DNA of 14,747 nt from Candidatus Vampirococcus lugosii (GCF_018420025.1 NZ_JAEDAM010000026.1:1-14747); one strand, 5' to 3'; counted from the stretch's first letter, positions 4,892 to 12,020 are shown. The notes: generated by a model not told the origin, from the letters alone. Numbers and translations are program-made.

Positions 4892-7800
4892 TTATGAATT
4901 AATTTGTTTTTTAATATATTCCATTCATTTTTTAGCTATATTGTAAGTAGCAAGATCATCTCAAGAGTTGATGAAATCAAATCAATGTCTTTTATTTTTC
5001 ATATGATAATTACAAGTATTATTTTCTGTTTTTTTCGCTTTTTTTAAGTTATTTCAATAATCAATTCAATTATTTTCTTTGTAATGATGCATTGAATTTT
5101 CAAATTTTGGTCATTTTCAATGTCAAAATAATTTTTCATTACAAACAGGACAAGCACTTGAAGTATTATATTTATTTATATATCAAATAATTCATAATTG
5201 ATCTAATTTTTTATCACTTTGAAAAGAAAAAACTTGTTTATAATTTGGAGGGACTTTTCATAGTGAAGAAAATTTTTGTAATAATTTTTCTTCTATTCTA
5301 CTTCATAAAGTTGTATTATTTTTTTCAAAATCATTTTGTTTTTTGGATAATTCAAAATCTTCAAAAAATATCATTCAAGGATATAATTCTTGCAAATATA
5401 TTATTATTCAAACCATATTAGCACAAATTGCATTTCTTAAATTATTTATTTTTAAAATAGAAATATTATTTTCATTTTCATCAAATTTATTTTTATTTAA
5501 ATATTCTTGTAATTCTTCTATAATCTCTTCCTTTGAACAAATAACATTTTCTTTATAATAATATAAAAATTCTTTTTTTTCTATACAATTTATAGTTATA
5601 TTATAATCATCATCCAAAATTTTATAATCTTTAATTTTTTTGGCATATACTAGATCATAAATTTTTCTTTTTGCTGAAGCTATTTTTAAATTTAAATATG
5701 TTGATAAATCTCAATTTAAATAGATTCTTCCATTTATAAATTTTGCTTTAGTTAAATCTATACATGAAACTTCTTTTTCATCATAAAAATCTGGATGTGT
5801 ATCAAAAGTATAATATGATAAATTTTTATAAATTGGAGTTCATTTTTCATTTGTAGCTTTTAATCATTTTTCATTTAGTTCATAAACTTTAATTTTTACT
5901 CATTTATTATTTTCTTTTGAAAAATCAAAAATTCATAAACTTACAAGTTCATTTTCTCATCTATCAAGTCAATAAAAATATTTAAAAGAATTTTCTTTAT
6001 TAAAATCTTTGTTATATTTATTATAAAAATTTAAAATTTCATCTGTTTCTTTAAAATTTAAATCAATTGATTTATTAAAAGAATTTTGTGTAATACTTGT
6101 TGTTAAAATATATCTATCATATAATTTTCTATTAAATTTCAATCAAGAATATTTTTTTTCAAAATTTTTGTCTTTTTCTATAAAACTAATTTTTATTTCT
6201 GGATTTATACGAATAGGAAATTTTTCTTTTTCATTATCTTCAGTCCAAAAATTCCACCATACTTTAGTATAATTATTTGGTTTTTCTCTTTTGAATTCTT
6301 TTTTTGTTTCTAATTTCTTTATTTCTTCTTCATCATATTTTTTTAAATCATAATTGGTAATTTTATAAAGTTTTGCTTCAAAATTTTCTATAATTTCTTG
6401 TTTTGTTTTATCTGATATAATAATTTTTTCTCTTTTATAACAAACTTTTTTTAATTCTTCTTCAAATTTTTCTAAATTTTCAAAATCTTTTTTTATAAAA
6501 TCATCAAATCAATCAAAATATTTTATAGAAATTTGTTTTTTTGTTGATTCAAGATTTAATACAGTTTTATAAAAATCTATAAGCAATTTTTCATCATTTT
6601 CTCAATTTTGTTTTTTGAATTCAAATTTATCTTTTAATTTTCATTTATTAAAAAAAATTTTATATTTATATTTACATATATTTTTATTTAAATTTTTTCT
6701 AAATGAATCGTCTACTTCTTTTCTAAATGAATTATATAAATCTTTTCTAAATGAATTATCTACTTCTTTTAATTTTCAATGTATATTTTCAACTTCTTTT
6801 CAAAAACAAAGTTTATCCAAAGCTCTTAAAGTAAATGATTCAAATTTATATAAAATCCATTCTCAATTATTTTCATTTTGTAAATTATCTATAAAATATT
6901 TTGATTGATTTAAATTTGTTTTGTATTTAGAAATCTCTTTTTTTGTATCTCTTGGAATAGTAAGTAAATATTTATTATTTTTATTTTCAAGAATTAAAGC
7001 CCAACTATTTGTTTTTTCAGCTTCAATTTTTTCTTTTTCAATTGATTTTATAAGTGCTTTTATTTTACCATATTCCGTTGCAATTTTTTTGTATTCATTA
7101 CAAAAGTTTTTAAATTTATAAAATTTAAATTTTCATTTTCTATTTCATTCAAAAAAATATTGTCATCTTTCTTTTTTTAATTCTGTTATTTTTTCAAAAA
7201 AATTTTCTTTTTCTATTTCTCAAAATTTTTCTCAAAATTCATTATTATATTTTTCTAAATTATATTTTATTTCTTCATTTTTTTGCTCTTTATTTTTTGC
7301 TTTTTTAATATTTAAAATATCTGATTTTGCTGTTGATAAAATTAAAATAGCCTTTGTTAAATCTAAAATATTTTTATATTGATCTTTATCAAAAATATCA
7401 TTATATAATGAAATATTTAAATCAATATTTTCTCATTTTGCTTTTGCTTCTAAATATTTTAAAAAATTTGATTTTTGTTCTGTTTTATATTCTTTCATTA
7501 ATTCATATGCTCTTTTTATTTCTAAATCTCAAATATCACTTGTAATATATTTACAAAATCAAGAATTTTTTATATTATATATATTAAATATGTTTTTTAT
7601 TTTTCTCTCTTTTTTATTAAAATAAGTAAATTCATTTAATTTTTTATTATTTTCTTTTTCTTTTTCTAATATATTTTTGTCATAATTTTTGGGTTTTTTG
7701 TTTACGGTAAAATAATTAAAACTTGCTTTTTCAATTACTTGTCATGAATTTTTTGGCAAAAGATGTTTTTCAATATTTATAATTAATTTTTCTGTTTTTT

Positions 7801-8368
7801 TAATTTTTTCTTTTATATCATTAATTTTTTTTGATATTTCTGCTTCTTCTATATTTATATTATTAAATAATTCTTTTAAAAAATTAAAATTTGTTATTTT
7901 TGAAATTTGATAAAAAAAATAATTCAAATCTGAATTTCTGGCTTTATCTTCTTGATTTCTAAATCATAAATTTTTAATTTTTCCTAAAAAAAAATTATTA
8001 TCATTTTCAAAACTTTTAAATCTATCTAATAGATAATCTAATTTTTTACTTTCTCAAATTTCAATTTGATTATTTCATTTTTTAAGAAATATAATATTTT
8101 TATCATAAAATTCTCTTTTTGTATAATTTTTTAAAAAACTAAATTTTATTTTTAATTTTTTATTTAATTTTTCTTTATTAAAATTAAAAACTATTTCTGG
8201 AAAAATTGAAAGTATTTTTTCATAAATTTCAACAAATTTTTTTAAATTTTCATCTAAATTTCATTCATATTTTGGTTTAATTAATTCTTCATCAAAATAA
8301 GGCTTTAACTCAAACCTAACTGTTTTATTTACCTCATACAAATTTTGTAAATTTTTTATATTTGTCAT
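4892..8368 (-). CDS. cas12a2: Second type V effector: a divergent Cas12a-derived nuclease of 1158 aa with a Cas12a2-like architecture
   Basis: It is continuous under table 25 (3477 nt), and track fragments 7742-7927 and 5408-5617 are in frame. The N-terminus MTNIKNLQNLYEVNKTVRFELKP parallels the Cas12a NLYxxSKTLRFELKP. Other Cas12a-like blocks are SWALILENKNNKYLLTIPRD, LYKITNYDL and NRKLYDRYILTTSIT. RuvC-I is YFYGLDRGENELV (D802), RuvC-II is GMIFFEDFE (E1003) and RuvC-III is SGDDLATYNIAKKG (D1137). The RuvC-I to RuvC-II distance is 201 aa, against 85 aa in the adjacent Cas12a. The RuvC-II to RuvC-III distance is 134 aa, against 239 aa. That shorter region holds only ACPVCNEKLFGHGKG...NTCNYHMKN (CxxC...CxxH). 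The family call (Cas12) is strong; the Cas12a2 assignment rests on architecture only. Confidence 0.8.
6695..6766 (-). repeat. In-frame 3 x 24-nt tandem repeat inside the second effector gene
   Basis: The plus-strand units are TTTTCTAAATGAATCGTCTACTTC, TTTTCTAAATGAATTATATAAATC and TTTTCTAAATGAATTATCTACTTC (6695-6718, 6719-6742, 6743-6766). They encode EVDNSFRK-DLYNSFRK-EVDDSFRK (residues ~535-558). Confidence 0.9.
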
Positions 8369-11300: not shown

Positions 11301-12020
11301 AATTCAATCTTGCAAAAGACAATTATTATAAAAATCTAATTCAAAAATAGCTTTTTCATCTTGTGATAATTTATTTTTTATAAAATCTGGAAAATTATTT
11401 TTAAAATTTTGGAAATCTTGAATATTTTTAATAAAAGTGATTAAATTTTCATCAATAGCTCTCGTGGCAACTGCTCCTGCTTTGCCATCTTCAGCATAAA
11501 AATTTTTTCTAGATTCATTAAAATTTGCAAAATAAGTAAAAAATCTATCAAATTTAGCAAATAAATCTTTTTGTTCTGGATAAAATTCTCACATAAGTTT
11601 TAAAATTTCTTTTTCATTCAAAACTGAAATTCATCATTTTTTAAGAAAAGAATATTTCTGTTTCCACTTATTTCATTGAGATTCAAAAAACTTTACAAGT
11701 TCTTTTCTTAAATTTTTGGATATTTTTTCAAATTCTTTTTGTAATTTTTTATTTTTTTTATTTTCTGGAGATTTATTTAATTCAATGTAAGAATTATAAA
11801 AATCTTCTAGTTGATTTAGATAAATATTTTGTAAAGCTTGTTTTACAAATTTACGATGTAGATCATCAAAATAATCTTTTATTTTTGTATAATTTACTTG
11901 TACTTGTCTATCTTTTTGGATAATTCAATCTTTTTTTAGATTATCTAATGTATTTGAAATAGGTTTTAGTTCAAATCTCAAAGTTTTTGATATTTCATAA
12001 AGATTAGTAAAATTTTCCAT
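8394..12020 (-). CDS. cas12a: Cas12a (Cpf1) type V-A effector nuclease, 1208 aa under table 25
   Basis: MENFTNLYEISKTLRFELKPISNTLDNLKKDGIIQKD...FANFNESRKNFYAEDGKAGAVATRAIDENL...NNCLLQDGIDNYNKVLGGYS...FLTGWDKDKEKERLGVILKKDGNYYLGIL...[35 protein letters not shown]...LSGGAEVFFRDK...HKRYSQDKILFHISITLNANK...IIGIDRGEKHLAYYSVIDRNGKI (RuvC-I D844)...[57 protein letters not shown] (RuvC-II E929)...QSGIMFYTRANYTSTTCPVCGF...YIICPSCDYHS...NFNADANGAYNIARKGIMIL (RuvC-III D1168). By my hand count about 40 in-frame TGA codons are present, and they repeatedly fall on invariant Gly positions. Track fragment 10359-10613 is in frame. Confidence 0.95.

What the first reader, a model, noticed from the sequence alone, without database searches (positions are those of the whole stretch)
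4892..12020. Two tandem Cas12-family effectors in one operon upstream of a single type V-A array and one adaptation module
A canonical cas12a (8394-12020) is followed after a 25-nt gap by a second 1158-aa gene (4892-8368). That gene shares the Cas12a N-terminal block (NLYEVNKTVRFELKP) and several WED/REC-like blocks, and it has a complete RuvC triad. Then come cas4-cas1-cas2 and the only array in the window. Both effectors look catalytically intact, so this is not a decaying duplicate. It suggests two effectors loaded from the same crRNA pool. One would cut DNA, and the other could be an RNA-sensing, collateral-nuclease backup, as established for Cas12a2, which is known to co-occur with Cas12a in some loci. 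As far as I know this has not been characterised in a recoded CPR genome.
Basis: partly seen in the sequence, partly recalled or inferred. Interest (0 to 1): 0.9.

Follow-up and report, generated by a model that had tools for sequence, protein, structure and literature searches.

The report
Tandem Cas12a and Cas12a3 CRISPR locus
This CRISPR locus of the predatory bacterium Vampirococcus lugosii encodes a DNA-cutting Cas12a next to an intact second nuclease that belongs to the recently characterised RNA-triggered Cas12a3 family (not Cas12a2); the arrangement is real, but it is already published and common in that family.

Summary
With UGA read as glycine (code 25), the minus strand carries cas12a (8394-12020), a second 1158-aa gene (4892-8368) 25 nt downstream, then cas4, cas1 and cas2. 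One array follows, with 35 identical 36-nt repeats.

The second protein has an intact RuvC triad (D802/E1003/D1137). It is not Cas12a2. By BLAST, profile HMMs, a bootstrapped tree and a structure prediction it sits inside the Cas12a3 clade. It is 52% identical over its full length to ca23Cas12a3, an orthologue shown experimentally to be RNA-activated and to trim tRNA 3' ends.

It lacks the tRNA-loading domain of the Bacteroidota Cas12a3 proteins, so its substrate selectivity is uncertain. It could trim tRNA tails or act as a broader RNase.

The repeat carries the Cas12a-type handle that Cas12a, a2, a3 and a4 all accept, so a shared crRNA pool is very likely.

The window is the whole contig from Candidatus Vampirococcus lugosii. 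Moreira et al. 2021 already described this gene (Vamp_48_93) as a candidate new type V effector between Cpf1 and Cas1. Pairing of Cas12a3 or Cas12a2 with Cas12a is published. I found Cas12a within 10 kb in 12 of 25 related loci, six of them with the identical gene order. The locus is ordinary for its family, and interest is low.

The parts
8394..12020 (-). cas12a (1208 aa, code 25, 40 in-frame UGA). A canonical DNA-targeting type V-A effector with RuvC residues D844/E929/D1168.
   Evidence: ORF. Pfam RuvC_1 6.8e-77, REC1, NUC, REC2. Full-length matches to solved Cas12a structures. RuvC alignment.
4892..8368 (-). cas12a3 (1158 aa, 41 in-frame UGA), equal to Vamp_48_93 / P0001. A Cas12a3-clade effector lacking the tRLD, with RuvC D802/E1003/D1137 and a CxxC...CxxH zinc ribbon near residues 1066-1125.
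   Evidence: Exact match to an NCBI hypothetical protein of Ca. Vampirococcus lugosii. PDB matches are Cas12a3 only. BLAST 52% identity to ca23Cas12a3. Tree. HMMs. Structure and Foldseek. Residue mapping.
4331..4879 (-). cas4
   Evidence: Pfam Cas_Cas4 6.5e-10. Starts 12 nt after the cas12a3 stop.
3349..4305 (-). cas1
   Evidence: Pfam Cas_Cas1 1.1e-55.
3059..3337 (-). cas2
   Evidence: Pfam CRISPR_Cas2 2.3e-17.
2762..3058 (-). Presumed leader between cas2 and the first repeat. It includes a locally G+C-rich stretch.
   Evidence: Position only. No tRNA or Rfam match. A promoter-like hexamer pair at 3042-3014 is no better than chance.
536..2761 (-). CRISPR array of 35 identical 36-nt repeats and 34 spacers of 26-32 nt. 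In the cas-gene orientation the repeat is CTTTATAATTCGTATAATATTTCTACTTTTGTAGAT, with a Cas12a-type 3' handle.
   Evidence: The same handle occurs at loci where no cas12a was found (L004; L005, whose contig starts 158 nt upstream of cas12a3).
14053..14125 (-). Remnant copy of the cas12a start region (92% identical to 11970-12042, ATG changed to ACG). It is not part of the functional system but marks a rearrangement upstream of the operon.

Best explanation
The locus is a two-effector type V CRISPR-Cas system: cas12a, cas12a3, cas4, cas1, cas2 and one array. It is probably a single transcription unit.

How it most likely works:
1. The array transcript is cut into crRNAs that carry the Cas12a-type pseudoknot handle (...AUUUCUACUUUUGUAGAU).
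2. Both proteins load these crRNAs.
3. Cas12a recognises PAM-flanked double-stranded DNA and cuts it.
4. The second protein is a Cas12a3-clade enzyme. It is activated when its guide pairs with a complementary transcript of the invader, and its RuvC site then cleaves non-target RNA.
5. By analogy with its closest tested relative, ca23Cas12a3, that RNA is mainly the 3' ends of tRNAs. Translation stops and the infected cell arrests.

This would act as a back-up layer when DNA cutting fails, for example against escape mutants or anti-CRISPRs.

What is shown here:
- gene structure, genetic code and intact catalytic residues;
- clade membership by sequence, profile, tree and fold;
- absence of the tRLD;
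- repeat identity with loci where no cas12a was found;
- recurrence of the same gene order elsewhere.

What is inferred from published work on relatives:
- RNA activation;
- tRNA-tail or other RNA cleavage;
- crRNA sharing;
- the abortive-infection role.
For: Clade membership:
- phmmer against PDB finds only Cas12a3 chains (9.5e-71 and 2.1e-55).
- A family profile gives Cas12a3 5e-164 and 5e-151, SuCas12a2 6e-22, and no Cas12a.
- BLASTP gives full-length matches to every Cas12a3 reference, with 52% identity to ca23Cas12a3. Matches to Cas12a4, Cas12a2 and Cas12a are partial and weak.
- HMM scores are 769 bits for Cas12a3 references without ca23, 119 bits for Cas12a4, and no hit for Cas12a2.
- NJ bootstrap places B in Cas12a3 in 200 of 200 replicates, and with ca23 in 170 of 200.
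- The AF2 model has pLDDT 78.6. Foldseek gives TM 0.69-0.70 to Cas12a3 binary complexes.

Catalysis: D802/E1003/D1137 align to the catalytic triad of Ba1Cas12a3.

Activity of relatives:
- ca23Cas12a3, Ba1Cas12a3 and Sm3Cas12a3 are RNA-activated and trim tRNA 3' ends.
- They trigger no SOS response (PMC12851939).

Shared crRNA:
- The Nature study used one Cas12a-type crRNA scaffold for Cas12a/2/3/4.
- The handle ATTTCTACTTTTGTAGAT is identical at loci L004 and L005, where no cas12a was found.
- Cas12a and Cas12a2 exchange guides (PMC9811890).

Operon:
- The genes share one strand, with gaps of 25, 12, 25 and 11 nt.
- There are no terminator-like sites in 400-12400.

Recurrence: Cas12a lies within 10 kb of a Cas12a3 relative in 12 of 25 loci, six of them with the identical gene order.
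Against: - No experiment exists on this protein.
- It has only 25 residues (915-939) where Ba1Cas12a3 has its 106-residue tRLD. It lacks equivalents of R902, Y922 and N924, which position the CCA tail.
- A tRLD-less orthologue, RoiCas12a3, was reported to cut its target RNA and to show strong general collateral RNase activity rather than clean tRNA-tail trimming (PMC13594972).
- The REC2 T-arm loop cannot be aligned reliably.
- No protospacer was found, so PAM/PFS compatibility and target identity are untested.
- Promoter predictions are uninformative in this AT-rich DNA.
- The tree is neighbour-joining on about a third of the published orthologues, not a full maximum-likelihood analysis.
Confidence: 0.8

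Rival explanations
1. Same family, different output. Because it lacks the tRLD, the protein may be a broad RNA-triggered RNase that cuts its target transcript and bystander RNAs, like RoiCas12a3 or Cas12a4, rather than a selective tRNA-tail trimmer.
For: The tRLD core is absent. RoiCas12a3, which also lacks a tRLD, cleaves target ssRNA efficiently, has high collateral RNase activity and gives a different tRNA product (PMC13594972). The C-terminal ZR/RuvC-III module is closer to Cas12a4 members (39-43% identity) than to Bacteroidota Cas12a3 (25-29%).
Against: ca23Cas12a3 is 52% identical and equally lacks the tRLD (28 residues in that region). It was reported to give tRNA 3'-end cleavage patterns similar to Ba1Cas12a3, and it prefers a hairpin reporter (PMC12851939). 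I did not obtain the sequence of RoiCas12a3, so its distance from this protein is unknown.
Confidence: 0.3
2. One reading: the second effector is a Cas12a2 that shreds dsDNA, ssDNA and RNA after recognising RNA.
For: The genomic layout matches published cas12a-cas12a2 tandems (PMC9811890), including one in an SR1 genome. SuCas12a2 is the next-best structural and profile match.
Against: A Cas12a2 profile gives no hit, against 769 bits for Cas12a3. BLAST to Cas12a2 references is partial, E about 1e-8. Cas12a2 forms a separate clade in 200 of 200 bootstraps. TM is 0.39-0.45 against 0.69-0.70. The Cas12a3 clade is reported to lack the aromatic-clamp regions needed for DNA shredding.
Confidence: 0.04
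3. The second gene is a divergent DNA-targeting Cas12a paralogue, for example with another PAM, or an inactive or decaying duplicate.
For: It shares the N-terminal motif and the RuvC fold with Cas12a.
Against: No Pfam Cas12a domain is detected. No Cas12a chain is found, even with a family profile. The approximately 150-aa Nuc domain of Cas12a is replaced by a short zinc ribbon. The 1158 codons contain no TAA or TAG, the catalytic triad is conserved, and identity to relatives from other samples is 47-58% over the full length.
Confidence: 0.03
4. The suggestion of Moreira et al.: the CRISPR systems of this predator help to degrade nucleic acids imported from the prey rather than, or as well as, defending against phages.
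For: It is only an 'appealing possibility' raised in PMC8080830. One spacer (1853-1882) has 53% G+C in a genome of about 20% G+C, so it comes from a G+C-richer source.
Against: No spacer match of any kind was found. The same locus type occurs in many non-predatory lineages. Relatives protect against phage T4.
Confidence: 0.05

Closest known systems
ca23Cas12a3 (wastewater metagenome; Dmytrenko et al., Nature 2026, PMC12851939)
   Same: 52% identity over the full length and the same inner clade (170 of 200 bootstraps). Same RuvC motifs, the same CxxC...CxxH zinc ribbon with the 'LFGHG...MHH' insert, and the same lack of a tRLD (28 against 25 residues). The near-identical relative at L005 has the same repeat handle. 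ca23Cas12a3 was shown to be RNA-activated and to trim tRNA 3' ends.
   Different: Its contig shows cas12a3-cas4-cas1-cas2-array with no cas12a, though the contig starts just upstream of cas12a3. The V. lugosii gene uses UGA for 41 of its 44 glycines and sits directly behind cas12a.
Ba1Cas12a3 / BaCas12a3 (Bacteroidota; structures 9HLX, 9HM4, 21WE)
   Same: The same clade and overall fold (TM 0.69-0.70). The catalytic triad aligns. They are RNA-guided and use a Cas12a-type crRNA handle.
   Different: Only 22-27% identity. They carry the 106-residue tRNA-loading domain (855-960), with R902/Y922/N924 gripping the CCA tail. This protein lacks that domain.
RoiCas12a3 (Roizmanbacteria; Li et al., NAR 2026, PMC13594972)
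   Same: A Cas12a3 of CPR origin without a tRLD. It belongs to the group of homologues that Moreira et al. 2021 already linked to Vamp_48_93 (Roizmanbacteria).
   Different: It is reported as an efficient cutter of target RNA and a broad collateral RNase. I did not obtain its sequence, so its relatedness to this protein was not measured.
Tandem cas12a-cas12a2 loci (SuCas12a2 family; Dmytrenko et al., Nature 2023, PMC9811890)
   Same: The architecture: two Cas12-type effectors next to one adaptation module and one array with a Cas12a-type repeat. Guides are interchangeable. One effector cuts DNA and the other senses RNA. An SR1 example, AbCas12a with AbCas12a2, is listed.
   Different: The second effector here is not Cas12a2. 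Cas12a2 also destroys dsDNA, whereas characterised Cas12a3 enzymes cleave RNA only.
Cas12a4 (ApCas12a4 and relatives)
   Same: RNA-activated RNases of the same superclade. The C-terminal RuvC-III/zinc-ribbon module of this protein is 39-43% identical to ApCas12a4 and ca82Cas12a4.
   Different: Only the C-terminal 110-200 residues align by BLAST. The profile score is 119 bits, against 769 for Cas12a3, and Cas12a4 forms a separate clade.

Membership tests
Cas12a3 | Falls within the Cas12a3 clade, distinct from Cas12a, Cas12a2 and Cas12a4 (the family is defined phylogenetically in PMC12851939) | tested here: met
   NJ tree with 12 published Cas12a3, 3 Cas12a2 and 10 Cas12a4 references: 200 of 200 bootstraps. 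HMM scores are 769 bits (Cas12a3), 119 bits (Cas12a4) and no hit (Cas12a2). Caveat: distance method and a partial reference set.
Cas12a3 | Three RuvC motifs with catalytic D/E/D | tested here: met
   D802, E1003 and D1137 align to Ba1Cas12a3 D712, E1032 and D1137.
Cas12a3 | Zinc ribbon in place of the Cas12a Nuc domain | tested here: met
   CPVC...CNYH aligns with CPVC...C..C of Ba1 and CPIC...CDYH of ca23. The long Nuc insert of Cas12a is absent. Metal binding was not tested.
Cas12a3 | Overall Cas12a3 fold | tested here: met
   AF2 model with pLDDT 78.6 and pTM 0.66. Best Foldseek matches are 21WE and 9HLX at TM 0.69-0.70, with Cas12a2 at 0.39-0.45 and Cas12a at about 0.3.
Cas12a3 (tRLD-bearing subgroup, Ba1/BaCas12a3 type) | tRNA-loading domain (Ba1 residues 855-960) with the CCA-contacting residues R902, Y922 and N924 | tested here: not met
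   Only 25 residues (915-939) occupy these alignment columns, and R902, Y922 and N924 fall in gaps. The same holds for ca23, Gr2, ca1, Bd, Ba2 and Ba4. Only Ba1, Fe and Ch have the domain. The protein should therefore not be filed under the tRLD-type subgroup.
Cas12a3 | REC2 loop contacting the tRNA T-arm (Ba1 residues 251-257) | tested here: inconclusive
   This region is gap-rich and not alignable across the clade.
Cas12a3 | Uses a Cas12a-type repeat with a pseudoknot handle, and has conserved basic residues at the processing site | tested here: met
   The repeat ends in AAUAUUUCUACUUUUGUAGAU. The handle is identical at loci L004 and L005, where no cas12a was found. A single scaffold served Cas12a/2/3/4 in vitro. 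R747 is invariant in 18 homologues and aligns with the KR of Cas12a and Cas12a2. Processing itself was not tested.
Cas12a3 | Activated by complementary RNA; cleaves tRNA 3' tails or other RNA but not DNA; causes growth arrest without an SOS response | not testable with these tools
   Known only from relatives (PMC12851939, PMC13594972).
Cas12a2 | Membership of the Cas12a2 clade | tested here: not met
   No hit to a Cas12a2 profile. BLAST is partial at about 1e-8. Cas12a2 is a separate clade in 200 of 200 bootstraps.
Cas12a2 | Aromatic-clamp residues that enable dsDNA shredding | not tested
   I did not have the SuCas12a2 sequence or its residue numbering. The Nature 2026 paper states that Cas12a3 lacks these regions entirely.
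Cas12a4 | Membership of the Cas12a4 clade | tested here: not met
   Only C-terminal BLAST matches. 119 bits against 769 bits. Outside the Cas12a4 clade.
Cas12a / type V-A (gene at 8394-12020) | REC1, REC2, PI, RuvC and Nuc domains, a catalytic triad, and a cas4-cas1-cas2 module with a 36-nt repeat array | tested here: met
   Pfam (PI at 25.6 bits is just under the 27-bit cut-off). Full-length matches to solved Cas12a. D844/E929/D1168. Adaptation genes and array.

The most novel reading that the evidence does not exclude
The Cas12a3 lineage typical of CPR bacteria, to which this protein and ca23Cas12a3 belong, has no tRNA-loading domain. It also carries a zinc-ribbon module that looks more like that of Cas12a4. 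This lineage may therefore select its RNA substrate by a structural solution not yet described, or may have a different preferred substrate. If so, in this code-25 epibiotic predator the Cas12a/Cas12a3 pair would work as a two-tier system whose second tier differs mechanistically from the published Ba1Cas12a3 model.
Probability: 0.2. Interest if true: 0.5.

Novelty: already known. Interest (0 to 1): 0.2.

Why it matters
The main value is as an annotation correction. A GenBank 'hypothetical protein' of Vampirococcus lugosii was flagged in 2021 as a possible new type V effector. It can now be named a Cas12a3-clade, tRLD-less, probably RNA-triggered RNase that shares an array with Cas12a.

It also adds a data point to two published themes. 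First, Cas12a is often paired with an RNA-sensing relative: 12 of the 25 related loci surveyed here. Second, most of the Cas12a3 clade lacks the tRNA-loading domain that the structural model of tRNA-tail cleavage relies on. How those members choose their substrate is therefore still open.

The locus does not reveal a new kind of system.

Tried and rejected
- Pfam on the second protein gave no hit at E<=0.01, so family assignment had to come from PDB sequences, the literature supplement and my own profiles.
- I first suspected Cas12a4, because the Nature supplement lists Absconditabacterales and SR1 members under Cas12a4 and the C-terminus resembles ca76/ca82Cas12a4. Full-length BLAST, HMMs and the tree rejected this.
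- The spacer search found nothing. All 34 spacers against 50,697 phage records gave no match. Three G+C-richer spacers against IMG/VR gave no match. The leader-proximal spacer against JGI metagenomes gave no match. PAM/PFS and target identity therefore could not be derived.
- tRNA and Rfam scans of the whole window found nothing. The G+C-rich stretch in the leader remains unexplained.
- The promoter scan found 121 sites, against 124.6 expected by chance, so it is uninformative.
- Literature searches for Cas12a2 or Cas12a3 together with Vampirococcus or Absconditabacteria returned no paper. The supplement of the NAR paper is not held. I therefore cannot exclude that this protein is already in their Cas12a3 tree.

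
Full report
**Observation**

Under the standard bacterial code the window has no ORF above 97 aa. Treating TGA as sense reveals a co-directional minus-strand block:
- an ORF at 8394-12029, with its first ATG at 12020 (1208 aa);
- an ORF at 4892-8377, with its first ATG at 8368 (1158 aa);
- cas4 (4331-4879), cas1 (3349-4305) and cas2 (3059-3337).

The gaps between these genes are 25, 12, 25 and 11 nt.

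A CRISPR array of 35 identical 36-nt repeats and 34 spacers of 26-32 nt occupies 536-2761.

The recoding is UGA to Gly. The second gene has 41 TGA codons and only 3 GGN codons, and 27 of the 41 TGA codons align with glycine in a close homologue.

**Source and prior description**

The second protein is an exact match to an NCBI 'hypothetical protein' of Candidatus Vampirococcus lugosii, on a contig of 14,747 bp. The window is therefore that whole contig.

Moreira et al. 2021 (PMC8080830) describe this locus as a type V system with Cas1, Cas2, Cas4 and Cpf1 and 34 spacers of 26-32 bp. They single out 'Vamp_48_93 (1158 aa), located between Cpf1 and Cas1' as a probable new type V effector, with relatives in Roizmanbacteria, Gracilibacteria, Omnitrophica and Smithella.

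**The first gene**

It is an ordinary Cas12a. Pfam finds RuvC_1 (6.8e-77), REC1, NUC and REC2, with PI just below threshold. It matches solved Cas12a structures over its full length, from 7e-186 to 1e-129. Its RuvC residues D844/E929/D1168 are in place.

**The second gene: which family**

Pfam finds nothing. Against PDB sequences, the only matches at E<=1 are two Cas12a3 entries, 21WE (9.5e-71) and 9HLX Ba1Cas12a3 (2.1e-55).

Cas12a3 and Cas12a4 are clades defined in Dmytrenko et al., Nature 2026 (PMC12851939). They are RNA-activated and cleave RNA but not DNA. Cas12a3 preferentially removes tRNA 3' CCA tails and causes growth arrest without an SOS response.

That paper's supplement files several SR1 and Absconditabacterales proteins under Cas12a4. 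I therefore copied 25 labelled reference sequences from its Supplementary Data 1. Their lengths match the published table.

| Test | Cas12a3 | Cas12a4 | Cas12a2 | Cas12a |
|---|---|---|---|---|
| BLASTP of the second protein | full-length matches to every reference, 1e-42 or better; best is ca23Cas12a3 at 52% identity over residues 1-1152 | mostly C-terminal matches of 110-210 residues, plus weaker mid-protein ones; 1e-16 to 2e-4 | about 1e-8 | co-encoded Cas12a: 0.002 |
| Profile HMMs built from the references | 769 bits, ca23 left out | 119 bits | no hit | not built |
| NJ tree, 44 sequences, 1045 columns | contains the protein in 200/200 bootstraps; inner clade with ca23Cas12a3 170/200 | separate, 130/200 | separate, 200/200 | outgroup |
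| Profile of 18 homologues against PDB | 5e-164 and 5e-151 | no solved structure | SuCas12a2: 6e-22 | nothing at E<=1 |
| Foldseek with the AF2 model (pLDDT 78.6, pTM 0.66) | binary complexes TM 0.69-0.70 | no solved structure | TM 0.39-0.45 | TM about 0.3 |

The protein is a Cas12a3-clade member. It is not Cas12a2.

**Anatomy relevant to mechanism**

- The catalytic triad aligns with Ba1Cas12a3 D712/E1032/D1137.
- Instead of the long Nuc domain of Cas12a, the C-terminus has a CxxC...CxxH zinc ribbon shared with ca23, Gr2 and ca24 Cas12a3.
- R747 is invariant in 18 homologues. It aligns with the 'KR' of Cas12a and Cas12a2 at the crRNA-processing site.
- The tRNA-loading domain that defines the structural model (Ba1 residues 855-960; R902, Y922 and N924 hold the CCA tail) is missing. 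Only 25 residues (915-939) fill that region, and they are predicted to form a small beta-hairpin region.
- The same is true of most clade members, including ca23Cas12a3. Among the references, only Ba1, Fe and Ch carry the domain. This agrees with Li et al., NAR 2026, who found the extra domain in about 35% of homologues.

The literature gives two different readings for members without a tRLD. ca23Cas12a3 gave tRNA 3'-end cleavage 'similar' to Ba1, though with different reporter preferences and much lower activity. RoiCas12a3 cut its target RNA and showed strong general collateral RNase activity. RNA-triggered RNA cleavage is therefore a safe inference for this protein. Strict tRNA-tail selectivity is not.

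**Shared crRNAs**

In the cas orientation the repeat is CTTTATAATTCGTATAATATTTCTACTTTTGTAGAT. Three points support sharing:
- Its last 18 nt are identical to the repeats at related loci where no cas12a was found (L004; L005, the near-twin of ca23's contig, which begins 158 nt upstream of cas12a3).
- The Nature study used one Cas12a-type scaffold as 'crRNA for Cas12a/2/3/4'.
- Cas12a and Cas12a2 were shown to exchange guides.

Both effectors here very probably draw on the one array. This is an inference.

**How common is the arrangement**

In 25 loci encoding relatives of the second protein, tblastn found a Cas12a within 10 kb in 12. The identical order cas12a-cas12a3-cas4-cas1-cas2-array occurs in six:
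- L013, Bacteroidetes;
- L016, Bdellovibrionales (the BdCas12a3 contig);
- L019, Patescibacteria;
- L022, Lentisphaeria;
- L023;
- L024, Thermodesulfobacteriota.

Other orders occur in L001, L009, L014, L017, L021 and L025.

Published work says the same:
[quoted passage not shown] Cas12a systems'.
- Nature 2023 described cas12a-cas12a2 tandems next to a shared array and proposed cooperative defence.
- The 2026 supplement lists a Cas12a+Cas12a2 pair in a candidate division SR1 genome.
- An mBio 2023 survey noted nine type V-A variants with unannotated internal ORFs in these CPR groups.

The architecture is typical, also in recoded lineages.

**Mechanism proposed**

One transcript, or at least one co-directional block with no terminator-like site, yields both nucleases, the adaptation proteins and the pre-crRNA. 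Cas12a cuts PAM-flanked invader DNA. Cas12a3 is triggered when a crRNA pairs with an invader transcript, and it then cleaves cellular RNA, most likely tRNA 3' ends. Translation and phage replication stop.

Confidence that this is a Cas12a3-clade RNA-triggered RNase sharing crRNAs with Cas12a is about 0.8. Confidence in tRNA-tail selectivity specifically is about 0.5.

**Limits**

- There are no experiments on this protein.
- No protospacers were found.
- The tree uses a distance method on a subset of references.
- The REC-lobe alignments are weak.

**Verdict**

The increment is a precise family assignment for a published 'candidate effector', plus the note that it belongs to the tRLD-less majority of Cas12a3.

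Noticed in passing
window 14053-14125 (compare 11970-12042): A 73-nt direct copy (92% identical) of the cas12a start region. It includes the first 16 or so codons (ENFTNLYEISKTLRFE), with the ATG changed to ACG. It lies 2 kb upstream of the intact gene and is a scar of a rearrangement or insertion in front of the operon.
   Followed up: partly
window 12781-12956 and 14569-14747: Inverted repeats of about 175 nt, 99% complementary, bracket the Kazal-domain gene and the cas12a remnant. The contig ends inside the right-hand arm, so the assembly probably broke at a repeated mobile element.
   Followed up: partly
window 12084-12428 (-) and 12215-12712 (+): An integrase-core (rve_3, 6e-13) fragment and two short ORFs that look like transposase debris (no Pfam hit) lie directly upstream of cas12a.
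   Followed up: partly
window 13419-13898 (+); L001 6725-8329; L002 7072-8322: A secreted Kazal-domain protein lies next to the locus. In two relatives (an Altimarinota MAG and a Logan contig), a Kazal-domain gene and a DEAD-box helicase gene sit just upstream of cas12a3. This hints at a conserved neighbourhood.
   Followed up: partly
window 4892-5248 (protein residues 1040-1158): The RuvC-III/zinc-ribbon end of this protein and its subclade (ca23, Gr2, ca24) is 39-43% identical to ApCas12a4 and ca82Cas12a4, but only 25-29% identical to Bacteroidota and Bdellovibrionales Cas12a3. This could reflect module exchange between Cas12a3 and Cas12a4, or a retained ancestral state.
   Followed up: partly
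protein residues 915-939 (window about 5552-5626); reference alignment: The tRNA-loading domain is present only in Ba1, Fe and Ch among the 12 published Cas12a3 references I aligned. ca23Cas12a3, reported to trim tRNA tails, lacks it too. That sits uneasily with the finding that deleting the tRLD disables Ba1Cas12a3, and with the broad RNase activity reported for the tRLD-less RoiCas12a3.
   Followed up: partly
L016 4360-8697; also L013, L019, L022, L023, L024: A full-length cas12a lies immediately upstream of cas12a3 on the BdCas12a3 contig and on five others. The Nature 2026 supplementary table records only cas12a3, cas4, cas1 and cas2 for that contig.
   Followed up: yes
L001 13744-15934: In the Altimarinota relative, a DNA methylase gene and a hypothetical gene are inserted between cas12a3 and cas12a-cas4-cas1-cas2.
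   Followed up: no
window 2762-2850 and 520-535: Two locally G+C-rich stretches stand out in DNA of about 20% G+C. One is at the repeat-proximal end of the leader. The other is a palindrome, CCCGCCCGGGCGG, just beyond the last repeat. Neither gives a tRNA or Rfam match, and their function is unknown.
   Followed up: partly
window 1853-1882: One spacer (ATTGGGTCAGTATCTGGGCGGGTTCATCTG in the crRNA sense) has 53% G+C, far above the host genome, so it comes from a G+C-richer source. A 24-nt core of it had no exact match in IMG/VR, and the full spacer had no match in the phage records.
   Followed up: partly
window 2-496 (-): The 5' part of a gene for a 'predicted AAA-ATPase' (PF09820, 1.8e-36) runs off the end of the contig, just downstream of the array.
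   Followed up: no
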